In this document: positions 21,001 through 24,000 of the stretch, in pieces
How the letters are laid out: each line of letters begins with the position of its first letter
How positions within the stretch are numbered: the first letter of the stretch is position 1
Program-made: the position numbers
Assembly: GCF_013167455.1 (NCBI RefSeq)
Contig: NZ_CP038328.1
Reading direction: 5' to 3' (one strand)
Length of the DNA stretch: 64,000 bases
From: Escherichia coli O157:H7
Lineage (GTDB): Bacteria; Pseudomonadota; Gammaproteobacteria; Enterobacterales; Enterobacteriaceae

Positions 21001-24000
21001 CTGGAAGCTCGATCGCCTCGGACGATCGCTTGCCCATCTGGTCAACACGGTGAAGGAGCTGTCAGACCGCAAGATCGGCCTGCGGGTTCTGACTGGAAAG
21101 GGCGCTCAGATCGACACCACGACTGCGTCCGGTCGCATGGTGTTCGGAATCTTCGCCACCTTGGCCGAGTTCGAGCGGGATCTGATCCGAGAGCGCACCA
21201 TGGCGGGTCTCGCCTCCGCGAGAGCGCGCGGTCGCAAGGGCGGACGAAAATTCGCGCTCACCAAAGCTCAGGTGCGTCTCGCGCAAGCCGCCATGGCCCA
21301 GCGCGATACTTCAGTTTCCGATCTCTGCAAGGAACTCGGCATCGAGCGCGTCACTCTCTACCGATATGTCGGTCCCAAAGGCGAGCTCAGAGACCATGGT
21401 GGTCTTGCCTCGGTTTCGTTCCGGTCTTTTTGAGAGCATTATTTGTTATCAAGGAGACCATATATGTCATTAAAGCATAGTGATGAATTTAAGCGTGATG
21501 CAGTTCGCATAGCACTCACTAGTGGCTTAACACGCCGTCAAGTTGCGTCAGATTTAAGTATTGGGCTTTCCACGCTTGGGAAATGGATCGCATCAATTTC
21601 CGATGAAACTAAAATTCCTACCCAAGACACTGATCTTCTGCGTGAGAATGAACGTTTACGCAAAGAGAACCGTATCCTTCGGGAGGAGAGGGAGATATTA
21701 AAAAAGGCAGCAATATTTTTCGCAGTACAAAAGCTGTGAGATTTCAGTTTATTACGGATTACCGTGGCTCTCTCTCACGTTCACGCATATGTCGTTTGAT
21801 GGGCGTAACAGATCGTGGTTTACGCGCATGGAAACGCCGTCCTCCATCACTGCGCCAGCGTCGTGATCTTATACTTCTAGCGCATATACGTGAGCAGCAT
21901 CGGTTGTGTTTGGGGAGCTATGGTAGGCCGCGTATGACAGAAGAGTTGAAAGCGCTGGGCCTGCAGGTTGGGCAGCGTCGGGTTGGACGTTTGATGCGCC
22001 AGAATAACATTACAGTTGTTCGAACGCGTAAATTCAAACGGACAACGGATAGTCATCATACCTTCAACATTGCACCGAACCTATTAAAACAAGACTTTAG
22101 CGCAAGCGCACCCAACCAGAAATGGGCAGGCGATATCACTTATGTTTGGACCAGAGAAGGATGGGTCTATCTTGCTGTTATCCTTGACCTGTATTCCCGT
22201 CGCGTGATTGGCTGGGCAACAGGTGATCGATTAAAGCAGGATCTTGCATTAAGGGCACTGAATATGGCGTTGGCTTTACGCAAACCACCACCGGGTTGTA
22301 TTCAACACACAGACCGTGGGAGCCAATATTGCGCTCATGAATATCAAAAGCTACTGCTCAAACATCAATTGCTGCCGTCCATGAGCGGGAAAGGCAATTG
22401 TTTTGATAACTCCGCAGTAGAAAGCTTCTTTAAATCATTAAAGGCTGAGTTGATTTGGCGCAGACACTGGCAAACAAGGCGAGATATTGAGATTGCAATC
22501 TTCGAATATATAAATGGCTTTTATAATCCACGCCGAAGACATTCAACACTCGGCTGGAAATCGCCGGTGGCATTTGAGAAAAAAGCCGCTTAAAATGAGA
22601 GATAGACCGGAACACAACCGGTGCAAGACCATGGAAAGCATGTTCTCGGACTTACGTAGCAACTCGTTTCTTTTCGCAGGTTGAGCCACCTCCGCGCTTC
22701 ATCAGAAAACTGAAGGAACCTCCATTGAATCGAACTAATATTTTTTTTGGTGAATCGCATTCTGACTGGTTGCCTGTCAGAGGCGGAGAATCTGGTGATT
22801 TTGTTTTTCGACGTGGTGACGGGCATGCCTTCGCGAAAATCGCACCTGCTTCCCGCCGCGGTGAGCTCGCTGGAGAGCGTGACCGCCTCATTTGGCTCAA
22901 AGGTCGAGGTGTGGCTTGCCCCGAGGTGATCAACTGGCAGGAGGAACAGGAGGGTGCATGCTTGGTGATAACGGCAATTCCGGGAGTACCGGCGGCTGAT
23001 CTGTCTGGAGCGGATTTGCTCAAAGCGTGGCCGTCAATGGGGCAGCAACTTGGCGCTGTTCACAGCCTATCGGTTGATCAATGTCCGTTTGAGCGCAGGC
23101 TGTCGCGAATGTTCGGACGCGCCGTTGATGTGGTGTCCCGCAATGCCGTCAATCCCGACTTCTTACCGGACGAGGACAAGAGTACGCCGCAGCTCGATCT
23201 TTTGGCTCGTGTCGAACGAGAGCTACCGGTGCGGCTCGACCAAGAGCGCACCGATATGGTTGTTTGCCATGGTGATCCCTGCATGCCGAACTTCATGGTG
23301 GACCCTAAAACTCTTCAATGCACGGGTCTGATCGACCTTGGGCGGCTCGGAACAGCAGATCGCTATGCCGATTTGGCACTCATGATTGCTAACGCCGAAG
23401 AGAACTGGGCAGCGCCAGATGAAGCAGAGCGCGCCTTCGCTGTCCTATTCAATGTATTGGGGATCGAAGCCCCCGACCGCGAACGCCTTGCCTTCTATCT
23501 GCGATTGGACCCTCTGACTTGGGGTTGATGTTCATGCCGCCTGTTTTTCCTGCTCATTGGCACGTTTCGCAACCTGTTCTCATTGCGGACACCTTTTCCA
23601 GCCTCGTTTGGAAAGTTTCATTGCCAGACGGGACTCCTGCAATCGTCAAGGGATTGAAACCTATAGAAGACATTGCTGATGAACTGCGCGGGGCCGACTA
23701 TCTGGTATGGCGCAATGGGAGGGGAGCAGTCCGGTTGCTCGGTCGTGAGAACAATCTGATGTTGCTCGAATATGCCGGGGAGCGAATGCTCTCTCACATC
23801 GTTGCCGAGCACGGCGACTACCAGGCGACCGAAATTGCAGCGGAACTAATGGCGAAGCTGTATGCCGCATCTGAGGAACCCCTGCCTTCTGCCCTTCTCC
23901 CGATCCGGGATCGCTTTGCAGCTTTGTTTCAGCGGGCGCGCGATGATCAAAACGCAGGTTGTCAAACTGACTACGTCCACGCGGCGATTATAGCCGATCA

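What the first reader, a model, noticed from the sequence alone, without database searches (positions are those of the whole stretch)
21397..22631. IS1133-like element sits on the 3' end of tnpR, directly upstream of strA
The IS left inverted repeat begins inside the last codons of the resolvase ORF, so the TnpR C-terminus may differ from the IS-free form. The IS right end lies about 90 bp upstream of the strA TTG start, where it could supply an outward promoter. IS-driven strA-strB expression is the established explanation for IS1133-bearing Tn5393; whether this copy does so is inference.
Basis: partly seen in the sequence, partly recalled or inferred. Interest (0 to 1): 0.3.

Follow-up and report, generated by a model that had tools for sequence, protein, structure and literature searches.

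The report
IS1133 inside Tn5393, non-classical site
A complete IS1133 insertion sequence sits in the last codons of the resolvase gene of streptomycin-resistance transposon Tn5393, 25 bp upstream of its usual site; this arrangement is already known from plasmids R64 and pYR1, so the finding is real but ordinary.

Summary
A 1232-bp IS1133 (IS3 family) lies at 21400-22631. It has 28-nt terminal inverted repeats, TG...CA tips and a 3-bp target duplication (TGG, 21397-21399 and 22632-22634).

Joining the flanks in silico gives a sequence found 100% identical, in one piece, in at least 404 plasmids. The IS is therefore a clean insertion into IS-free Tn5393.

In most IS1133-bearing Tn5393 copies the IS follows the tnpR stop codon (TAG duplication), leaving TnpR intact at 204 aa. 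Here it lies 25 bp upstream. TnpR becomes 207 aa, its last 7 residues replaced by 10 IS-encoded ones. The catalytic domain and helix-turn-helix are untouched. The IS end is 93 bp from the strA TTG start instead of 68 bp.

The same junctions occur in R64 and pYR1 (Tn5393l and Tn5393i), in 33 plasmids, and in 57 of 5426 complete E. coli genomes.

The whole 6705-bp transposon sits in a chromosomal autotransporter gene of an E. coli O157:H7-type strain.

IS-driven strA-strB transcription remains an inference. Promoter-like sites exist in the IS right end but score no better than chance. Already known; low interest.

The parts
17766..24470 (+). Complete Tn5393 carrying IS1133 (6705 bp = 5470 + 1232 + 3). 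Its 81-bp terminal inverted repeats are at 17766-17846 and 24390-24470.
   Evidence: The terminal repeats match at 77 of 81 positions. The element is collinear with IS-free Tn5393a of pPSR1 (5470 bp) and with the copy in IncN plasmid pSE79-2359, from which it differs by 1 SNP.
17761..17765 (.). Left copy of the 5-bp target duplication TACGT made by Tn5393. The right copy is at 24471-24475.
   Evidence: The empty site is 100% identical in many E. coli O157:H7 chromosomes, inside an ECSE_1600-family autotransporter gene.
17799..20684 (-). tnpA, the Tn3-family transposase (961 aa).
   Evidence: Pfam DDE_Tnp_Tn3 at 1.4e-143 plus DUF4158. Annotated as WP_001138082.1 in FRIK1989 and R64.
20685..20809 (.). 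tnpA-tnpR intergenic region. It holds the res site and the divergent promoters, including the tnpR promoter that natively drives tnpR-strA-strB.
   Evidence: Position between the divergent genes. The promoter role comes from the literature (PMC9330008). Heuristic promoter-like sites lie at 20725-20752 and 20741-20770.
20810..21433 (+). tnpR, the resolvase/repressor, as a 207-aa variant. Codons 1-197 are native. The last 10 codons and the TGA stop (21400-21433) are IS sequence.
   Evidence: Translation compared with the 204-aa pPSR1 TnpR. Pfam Resolvase covers residues 3-142. It aligns to gamma-delta resolvase residues 3-180 over TnpR residues 2-188, so the helix-turn-helix ends before the altered tail. 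RefSeq protein WP_000904897.1.
21397..21399 (.). Left copy of the 3-bp target duplication TGG made by IS1133. The right copy is at 22632-22634.
   Evidence: The empty-site reconstruction matches IS-free Tn5393 exactly.
21400..22631 (+). IS1133 (IS3 family), 1232 bp, complete. Its transposase is co-oriented with tnpR and strA. IRL is at 21400-21427 and IRR at 22604-22631.
   Evidence: 28-nt inverted repeats, 86% complementary. It is 1229/1232 identical to the majority copy. Annotated as 'IS3-like element IS1133 family transposase'.
21464..21739 (+). orfA (91 aa, helix-turn-helix). The slippery heptamer A AAA AAG at 21700-21706 is in the correct phase.
   Evidence: Pfam HTH_Tnp_1 at 7e-09. Phase checked. 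A weak 9-bp stem-loop at 21718-21741 lies 11 nt downstream and is not significant (z = -1.2).
21736..22593 (+). orfB (-1 frame), with HTH_21 and the DDE integrase core. The OrfAB fusion made by the programmed -1 frameshift is 376 aa (21464-22593).
   Evidence: Pfam rve at 1.4e-27, HTH_21 and rve_2. Fusion built. PGAP notes 'programmed frameshift'.
22567..22596 (+). Candidate outward-facing sigma-70-like promoter in the IS right end (GTGGCA, 18-nt spacer, TAAAAT), pointing at strA.
   Evidence: It is the only consensus-scan hit in 20600-22800 and the top heuristic score (9.6). It is not above chance: 2.0 hits expected, and the shuffle median best score is 9.3. It lies entirely inside the IS, so it is shared with the classical copy. 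It is retained next to strA in R64.
22635..22659 (+). Displaced native 3' end of tnpR (codons KHVLGLT plus the TAG stop), now downstream of the IS. The TAG at 22657-22659 is the classical IS1133 insertion site.
   Evidence: Alignment of the window with L002 (classical), L003 (IS-free) and L004 (hybrid) (coordinates checked).
22725..23528 (+). strA, aph(3'')-Ib, with a TTG start (267 aa).
   Evidence: Pfam APH. Annotated as WP_001082319.1 at the same coordinates.
23528..24364 (+). strB, aph(6)-Id (278 aa). Its ATG overlaps the strA stop codon.
   Evidence: Pfam APH_6_hur at 4.6e-117. Annotated as WP_000480968.1.

Best explanation
**Shown**
A complete, apparently active copy of IS1133 (IS3 family, copy-out/paste-in) inserted into an IS-free Tn5393 between the second and third base of tnpR codon 198. 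It duplicated TGG. The site is 25 bp upstream of the site occupied in most IS1133-bearing Tn5393 copies, and it is the site seen in R64 (Tn5393l) and pYR1 (Tn5393i). Here the IS has no Tn10 inside it.

The IS-bearing transposon (6705 bp) later transposed as a unit into a chromosomal autotransporter gene of an E. coli O157:H7-type strain, duplicating TACGT.

TnpR keeps its catalytic domain and helix-turn-helix. It exchanges its last 7 residues for 10 IS-encoded ones.

**Inferred**
- The 207-aa TnpR still works as resolvase and repressor.
- strA-strB are now 1.3 kb from the res/tnpR promoter. They are probably transcribed largely from within the IS, which is co-oriented with them. The source would be promoter-like sites in its AT-richer last ~150 bp, read-through from the transposase gene, or both, with some read-through from the tnpR promoter as well.
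- No candidate promoter spans the IS/flank junction. The 25-bp shift should therefore not change whatever IS1133 does for strA-strB at the classical site.

My confidence is about 0.97 for the structure and about 0.55 for the IS being the main driver of expression.
For: **Structure**
- Inverted repeats, direct repeats, ORFs and frameshift motif.
- The empty site matches at 100% in at least 404 plasmids.

**Site differs from the majority site**
- Alignments.
- CDS coordinates of the 204-aa versus 207-aa TnpR.
- Junction counts in plasmids: 33 and 78 for the window type (left, right) against 174 and 425 for the majority type.

**Same junctions in known elements**
- R64 and pYR1 carry them.
- A review notes that in Tn5393i the IS1133 is not at the usual location but in tnpR (PMC10333595).

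**The element moves as a unit**
- The same 6705-bp element, 1 SNP apart, has different 5-bp duplications in IncN pSE79-2359 (GGTTA) and here (TACGT).

**TnpR domains intact**
-.

**Expression**
- The IS is 46% G+C (43% in its last 150 nt), against 61% for tnpR.
- The best promoter-like sites within 425 nt upstream of strA are all inside the IS and identical in both site variants.
- The IS-free upstream region has no site scoring above 4.7.
- No convincing terminator lies between orfB and strA.
- The literature says an internal IS raises the resistance level compared with Tn5393a (PMC10333595).
Against: - The promoter-like sites are no better than chance. One search found 1 site against 2.0 ± 1.5 expected. 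In one search the top score was 9.6 against a shuffle median best of 9.3.
- No transcript data were available.
- The primary papers on IS1133 and strA-strB expression (Chiou & Jones 1993 and 1995; Sundin & Bender 1995) could not be read. The 'IS1133 supplies a promoter' statement therefore rests on a review and on my recollection.
- The documented native driver is the tnpR promoter in res (PMC9330008). It could still read through the IS.
- Function of the 207-aa TnpR is untested. Clean simple insertions could also arise through RecA-mediated resolution.
Confidence: 0.8

Rival explanations
1. The IS is transcriptionally neutral. strA-strB are still driven mainly by the TnpR-repressed tnpR promoter in res, with transcripts reading through tnpR and the whole co-oriented IS1133.
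For: Transcriptional fusions established the res-located tnpR promoter as the driver of strA-strB (PMC9330008). tnpR, the IS transposase genes and strA are all on the + strand. The only terminator-like site inside the IS is a weak stem-loop with 3 G-C pairs at 21718-21741, within translated sequence. The IS promoter candidates are at chance level.
Against: A review reports that an internal IS raises resistance relative to IS-free Tn5393a (PMC10333595). R64 confers streptomycin resistance (from memory), yet its strA-strB are cut off from res and tnpR by 9.1 kb of Tn10. There the promoter must lie in the last 76 bp of IS1133 plus the spacer, or in IS10.
Confidence: 0.25
2. The altered TnpR C-terminus weakens repression at res. 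Expression (and transposition) would then rise by derepression, as proposed for IS6100 in tnpR of Tn5393b, rather than through an IS-borne promoter.
For: The TnpR tail is changed: 7 native residues are replaced by 10 IS-encoded ones. There is a precedent: IS6100 within tnpR removes repression and raises resistance (PMC9330008).
Against: The change starts at residue 198. Homology to gamma-delta resolvase, including its C-terminal DNA-binding helix-turn-helix, ends at about residue 188-191, and the Resolvase domain is intact. The variant element still produces clean simple insertions at different sites.
Confidence: 0.07
3. This is the classical Erwinia-type Tn5393 IS1133 insertion, and the apparent overlap with tnpR is only a matter of ORF calling or alignment ambiguity.
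For: The overall lengths are identical (2901-nt query, 98.2% megablast identity to majority copies). A 9-bp repeat (AGACCATGG) at the junctions makes the boundary ambiguous by alignment alone.
Against: Direct comparison shows the majority copy flanked by ...CTTACGTAG|IS|TAGCAACTC. The window copy is flanked by ...GACCATGG|IS|TGGAAAGC.... The 40-mer junction searches give disjoint sets of hits. The TnpR proteins differ: WP_000904906.1 (204 aa) against WP_000904897.1 (207 aa).
Confidence: 0.01

Closest known systems
Tn5393l (plasmid R64) and Tn5393i (plasmid pYR1)
   Same: Both tnpR::IS1133 junctions are identical as 40-mers. R64 has the same 207-aa TnpR (WP_000904897.1) and the same TnpA (WP_001138082.1).
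   Different: In R64, Tn10 (9148 nt including its 9-bp duplication) is inserted in IS1133 at IS positions 1148-1156. pYR1 additionally carries IS903 (review table). The window copy is uninterrupted, so it represents the Tn10-free form of that lineage. It is chromosomal rather than on a plasmid.
Classical IS1133-bearing Tn5393 (described from Erwinia amylovora pEa34; majority form in databases, e.g. P. syringae pv. actinidiae pMAFF212063-A)
   Same: The transposon backbone, IS orientation and transposase protein are the same, and the overall length is 6705 bp. The IS right-end sequence facing strA is the same, apart from the base at position 1229.
   Different: The classical IS lies 25 bp further downstream, exactly at the tnpR stop codon (TAG duplication). 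TnpR stays intact at 204 aa and the IS end is 68 bp from strA. The two IS copies differ at positions 4, 426 and 1229.
Tn5393a / Tn5393c (IS-free; pPSR1, pRAS2)
   Same: The sequence on both sides of the IS is identical. The reconstructed empty site matches at 100%.
   Different: They have no IS. strA-strB lie directly downstream of tnpR, so the res promoter is the driver (PMC9330008).
Tn5393b (IS6100 within tnpR, Xanthomonas)
   Same: An IS is inserted in tnpR upstream of strA-strB.
   Different: IS6100 (IS6 family) disrupts TnpR and lifts repression (PMC9330008). Here only the tail beyond the helix-turn-helix is changed.

Membership tests
IS3 family / IS1133 | Length about 1.2-1.5 kb, with imperfect terminal inverted repeats ending 5'-TG...CA-3' | tested here: met
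   1232 bp. The 28-nt inverted repeats match at 24 of 28 positions, with tips TGGTC...GACCA.
IS3 family / IS1133 | 3-bp target-site duplication | tested here: met
   TGG lies on both sides, and the empty site is present once in IS-free Tn5393.
IS3 family / IS1133 | orfA (helix-turn-helix) and orfB (DDE/rve) in the 0 and -1 frames, with an in-phase A AAA AAG slippery site | tested here: met
   Pfam HTH_Tnp_1, and HTH_21 plus rve. The heptamer at 21700-21706 is in phase, orfB is in the -1 frame and the fusion is 376 aa.
IS3 family / IS1133 | Near-identity to reference IS1133 (isoform level) | tested here: met
   1229/1232 identical to the majority Tn5393 copy. The transposase accession WP_085959879.1 is the same. 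The ISfinder reference sequence itself was not available to me.
Tn5393 (Tn3 family) | 81-bp terminal inverted repeats, 5-bp target duplication, and the order tnpA - res - tnpR - strA - strB | tested here: met
   Inverted repeats match at 77 of 81 positions, and the duplication is TACGT. Gene order and domains are as expected. The element is collinear with pPSR1 Tn5393a at 99.9-100% identity.
Classical Tn5393 (IS1133 between the tnpR stop codon and strA) | IS1133 inserted at the tnpR TAG stop, with TnpR intact at 204 aa | tested here: not met
   The IS is 25 bp upstream, with a TGG duplication and a 207-aa TnpR.
Tn5393i / Tn5393l lineage | IS1133 inserted within the 3' end of tnpR at this exact position | tested here: met
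   Both junction 40-mers are present in NC_009139.1 (pYR1) and NC_005014.1 (R64).
Tn5393i / Tn5393l lineage | Tn10 inserted within IS1133 | tested here: not met
   The window IS is uninterrupted at 1232 bp. R64 has Tn10 at IS positions 1148-1156.
IS-borne outward promoter activating a downstream resistance gene | Transcripts of the downstream gene start inside the IS or at a hybrid IS/flank promoter | not testable with these tools
   There are only sequence candidates (22567-22596 and others), at chance level. No hybrid candidate was found across the junction.

The most novel reading that the evidence does not exclude
IS1133 may have been guided to this site by a mimic of its own right tip. 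The left flank reads AGACCA and lies exactly 3 bp (the duplicated TGG) from the left inverted repeat (IRL). Flank plus IRL therefore reproduce the IRR-3 bp-IRL circle junction of an IS3-family element, matching the window-type right tip at 6 of 6 positions. If so, two things would not be coincidences: that two independent IS1133 insertions lie 25 bp apart, and that the two copies differ at mirror-image tip positions (4 and 1229). Both would reflect end-directed target choice, or tip co-conversion, in an IS3-family element. A smaller variant of this idea is that the 10 IS-encoded residues on TnpR change its autorepression.
Probability: 0.1. Interest if true: 0.3.

Novelty: already known. Interest (0 to 1): 0.12.

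Why it matters
The practical value is for annotation and epidemiology. There are two distinct IS1133 sites in Tn5393, 25 bp apart. They can be told apart by a 40-mer or by TnpR length (204 versus 207 aa). They mark separate lineages: the classical plant-pathogen type, and the R64/pYR1 type that is also chromosomal in E. coli. Recombinants between the two exist.

The finding does not change how strA-strB resistance is understood. If expression were measured, this natural pair of sites would give a simple test. It would show whether the IS1133 effect comes from a promoter wholly inside the IS, which predicts the same effect at both sites.

Tried and rejected
- **Primary papers.** I tried to read Chiou & Jones 1993 and Sundin & Bender 1995 by PubMed id and by PMC id. 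Neither is held. PMC2631670 is held only as a stub.
- **RNA families.** An Rfam scan of 17000-25500 at E ≤ 1 gave no match.
- **Frameshift stimulator.** Folding the region downstream of the slippery site gave only a weak hairpin (-10.3 kcal/mol, z = -1.2). I make no claim for a stimulatory structure.
- **Hybrid promoter.** I looked for an IS/flank promoter that would make the 25-bp shift matter. No candidate spans the junction.
- **Other IS1133 copies.** The genome-contig scan for IS1133 right ends returned only four contig-end copies in one species. That shows the window-type tip is mobile, but it is too little to say which tip is ancestral.
- **Gene conversion of the tips.** I considered that the tip differences were copied from the flank. 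This is rejected as a necessity, because the Paenochrobactrum copies carry the same tip next to unrelated flanks.
- **Assembly artefact.** Rejected, because identical junctions recur in dozens of independent records.
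Full report
**1. What is there**

The sequence at 21400-22631 is a 1232-bp insertion sequence. Its 28-nt imperfect terminal inverted repeats (TGGTCTTGCC... and ...GCAAGACCA) are 86% complementary. It is flanked by a 3-bp direct repeat, TGG, at 21397-21399 and 22632-22634.

- **orfA** (21464-21739, 91 aa) matches Pfam HTH_Tnp_1.
- **orfB** (21736-22593, -1 frame) matches HTH_21, rve and rve_2.
- An **A AAA AAG slippery heptamer** at 21700-21706 is in the correct phase. It gives a 376-aa OrfAB fusion.
- RefSeq annotates the same coordinates as 'IS3-like element IS1133 family transposase, programmed frameshift'.
- The copy is 1229/1232 identical to the IS1133 in most Tn5393 records and encodes the same protein accession.

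It is IS1133 itself, not merely 'IS1133-like'.

**2. It is a clean insertion**

I joined window base 21399 to base 22635, removing the IS and one TGG. This gave a 565-nt query that matched at 100% in a single piece in at least 404 plasmid records. These include pPSR1 (Tn5393a), Corynebacterium striatum pTP10 and Aeromonas plasmids. The IS-free sequence reads ...GAGACCATGGAAAGCATG..., so the insertion point and the native tnpR 3' end are settled.

**3. It is not the classical site**

The 2.9-kb tnpR-IS-strA region was 100% identical to only a handful of plasmids and 98.2% identical to most. Direct comparison explains why.

| Feature | Majority form (e.g. P. syringae pv. actinidiae pMAFF212063-A, L002) | Window |
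|---|---|---|
| Left junction | ...GGACTTACGTAG\|TGGACTTGCC... | ...GAGACCATGG\|TGGTCTTGCC... |
| Right junction | ...GCAAGTCCA\|TAGCAACTCG... | ...GCAAGACCA\|TGGAAAGCATGTTCTCGGACTTACGTAGCAACTCG... |
| Position | At the tnpR stop codon | 25 bp upstream |
| Target duplication | TAG | TGG |
| TnpR | 204 aa, intact (WP_000904906.1, same as IS-free pPSR1) | 207 aa |
| IS end to strA TTG | 68 bp | 93 bp |

In the window, TnpR shares residues 1-197 with the native protein. It then reads GLASVSFRSF* from IS sequence instead of KHVLGLT*. The displaced native codons and their TAG stop now lie at 22635-22659.

The two IS copies differ at three positions:
- position 4 (T here, A in the majority copy);
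- position 426 (synonymous);
- position 1229 (A here, T in the majority copy).

Positions 4 and 1229 are mirror positions in the two tips.

**4. How common it is, and whether it is known**

Counts of 40-mers spanning the junctions in 72,556 plasmids:

| Junction | Records |
|---|---|
| Window-type left | 33 |
| Window-type right | 78 |
| Majority-type left | 174 |
| Majority-type right | 425 |

In complete E. coli genomes the window-type left junction occurs in 57 of 5426, mostly on chromosomes.

The window-type records include R64 (NC_005014.1) and pYR1 (NC_009139.1). R64 has the same 207-aa TnpR and the same TnpA. Its IS1133 is interrupted by Tn10 at IS positions 1148-1156, with a 9-bp duplication CACTCGGCT. 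A review lists these elements as Tn5393l and Tn5393i. [quoted passage not shown] (namely in tnpR)' (PMC10333595).

The arrangement is therefore already documented. The window carries the Tn10-free form of it.

One record (CP043748, L004) is a recombinant. It has the majority-type left junction, the window-type right junction, a 28-bp duplication flanking the IS, and a SNP pattern that places the crossover inside the IS.

**5. Context**

The whole transposon spans 17766-24470. Its length is 6705 bp, which equals 5470 + 1232 + 3. It has 81-bp terminal repeats (77 of 81 matching) and a 5-bp duplication, TACGT.

It splits an ECSE_1600-family autotransporter gene. The empty site is 100% identical in many E. 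coli O157:H7 chromosomes. The window is identical over 12 kb to the E. coli FRIK1989 chromosome, where the same insertion is annotated.

The same 6705-bp element, one SNP different, sits in IncN plasmid pSE79-2359 with a different duplication, GGTTA. The IS-bearing element with the 207-aa TnpR has therefore transposed as a unit at least twice.

**6. Consequences for TnpR**

The Resolvase catalytic domain covers residues 3-142. TnpR residues 2-188 align to gamma-delta resolvase residues 3-180 of 183. The C-terminal helix-turn-helix thus ends roughly ten residues before the changed tail.

I infer that resolvase and repressor functions are retained. The clean simple insertions at several sites fit this inference, but they do not prove it, because RecA could also resolve cointegrates.

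**7. Consequences for strA-strB**

*Established knowledge.* In the IS-free element, the tnpR promoter in res drives strA-strB and is repressed by TnpR. IS6100 within tnpR lifts that repression (PMC9330008). An internal IS raises the resistance level relative to Tn5393a (PMC10333595). My recollection that Chiou & Jones attributed this to a promoter in IS1133 could not be checked, because the papers are not held.

*What the sequence shows.*
- The IS is co-oriented with tnpR and strA.
- The IS is AT-richer than its surroundings: 46% G+C overall and 43% in the last 150 nt, against 61% for tnpR.
- The only consensus-scan promoter hit in 20600-22800 is GTGGCA-18-TAAAAT at 22567-22596, pointing at strA.
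- A heuristic weight-matrix scan places the best five candidates within 425 nt upstream of strA inside the IS, identically in both site variants. The IS-free upstream region has no candidate above 4.7.
- None of these exceeds chance. One search expected 2.0 ± 1.5 hits, and the shuffle median best score was 9.3 against an observed 9.6.
- No candidate spans the IS/flank junction, so the 25-bp shift should not matter.
- No convincing terminator separates orfB from strA.

*R64 as a natural experiment.* Tn10 cuts strA-strB off from res, tnpR and most of the IS. It leaves the last 76 bp of IS1133, including the 22567-22596 candidate, next to strA. R64 is a streptomycin-resistance plasmid (from memory), which fits a promoter in that stub. 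However, the outward promoter of IS10 is an equally good explanation, so the case is not decisive.

*My position.* IS-derived transcription is the main contributor, whether from an outward promoter or from read-through of the transposase gene. I put this at about 0.55. Read-through from the res promoter alone is the main rival at 0.25. Derepression through the altered TnpR tail is unlikely at 0.07.

**8. Verdict**

The promoter part remains an inference.

The one real addition is that this copy sits at the R64/pYR1 site rather than the classical Tn5393 site. That is already in the literature and in RefSeq annotation, so interest is low.

Noticed in passing
window 21400-21404 and 22627-22631; L002 4726-5957: The window IS1133 and the majority Tn5393 copy differ at mirror-image tip positions: position 4 (T versus A) and position 1229 (A versus T). 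Each copy therefore keeps perfect tip symmetry (TGGTC...GACCA versus TGGAC...GTCCA). The only other difference is a synonymous change at position 426 (window 21825). Two symmetric changes among only three in 1232 bp look non-random, and I have no explanation.
   Followed up: partly
L006-L009 (Paenochrobactrum gallinarii DSM 22336 contig ends): Four IS1133 right ends with four unrelated flanks all carry the window-type GACCA tip. This tip variant is therefore a mobile form, present in multiple copies in an alphaproteobacterium from poultry. It was the only species representative with exact matches in the genome collection.
   Followed up: partly
window 21391-21405: The left flank AGACCA, the duplicated TGG and the IRL start TGGTCT together reproduce an IRR-3 bp-IRL circle junction, matching the IS's own right tip at 6 of 6 positions. 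This may hint at end-directed target choice, as I recall being reported for IS911. It is a post hoc observation, with roughly a 1 in 2000 chance of arising by accident.
   Followed up: partly
L004 (CP043748.1) 4681-6000: This is a hybrid element with the majority-type left junction and the window-type right junction. A 28-bp direct duplication, TGGAAAGCATGTTCTCGGACTTACGTAG, flanks the IS, and the transposon is 6730 bp long. The SNP pattern indicates a crossover inside IS1133 between the two lineages. Window-type right junctions (78) outnumber left junctions (33), so such hybrids or truncated copies may be common.
   Followed up: partly
L010 (R64) 5475-14624; equivalent to window 22547-22555: In R64, Tn10 is inserted in IS1133 with a 9-bp duplication, CACTCGGCT. 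The insertion lies 11 nt upstream of the -35 hexamer of the candidate outward promoter. Only 76 bp of IS1133 remain next to strA.
   Followed up: yes
window 14153-17765 and 24471-26291: Tn5393 interrupts a large ECSE_1600-family autotransporter gene on the minus strand. RefSeq annotates the pieces as pseudogene fragments in FRIK1989, one of them also frameshifted. The uninterrupted site is 100% identical in many O157:H7 genomes.
   Followed up: partly
window 26822-36309: Just to the right of the insertion lie lsrK (annotated in FRIK1989) and a run of ORFs whose layout suggests the lsr autoinducer-2 uptake operon. Only lsrK was confirmed by annotation.
   Followed up: no
window 5638-11084: A run of minus-strand ORFs includes an 883-aa ORF (7672-10323) and has lower G+C (about 44%). 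It looks like a chaperone-usher fimbrial operon. This was not examined.
   Followed up: no
window 20677: The single difference between the window transposon and the pSE79-2359 copy is C versus T at 20677, in the third codon of tnpA. RefSeq gives the two copies different TnpA accessions (WP_001138082.1 and WP_099807431.1).
   Followed up: no
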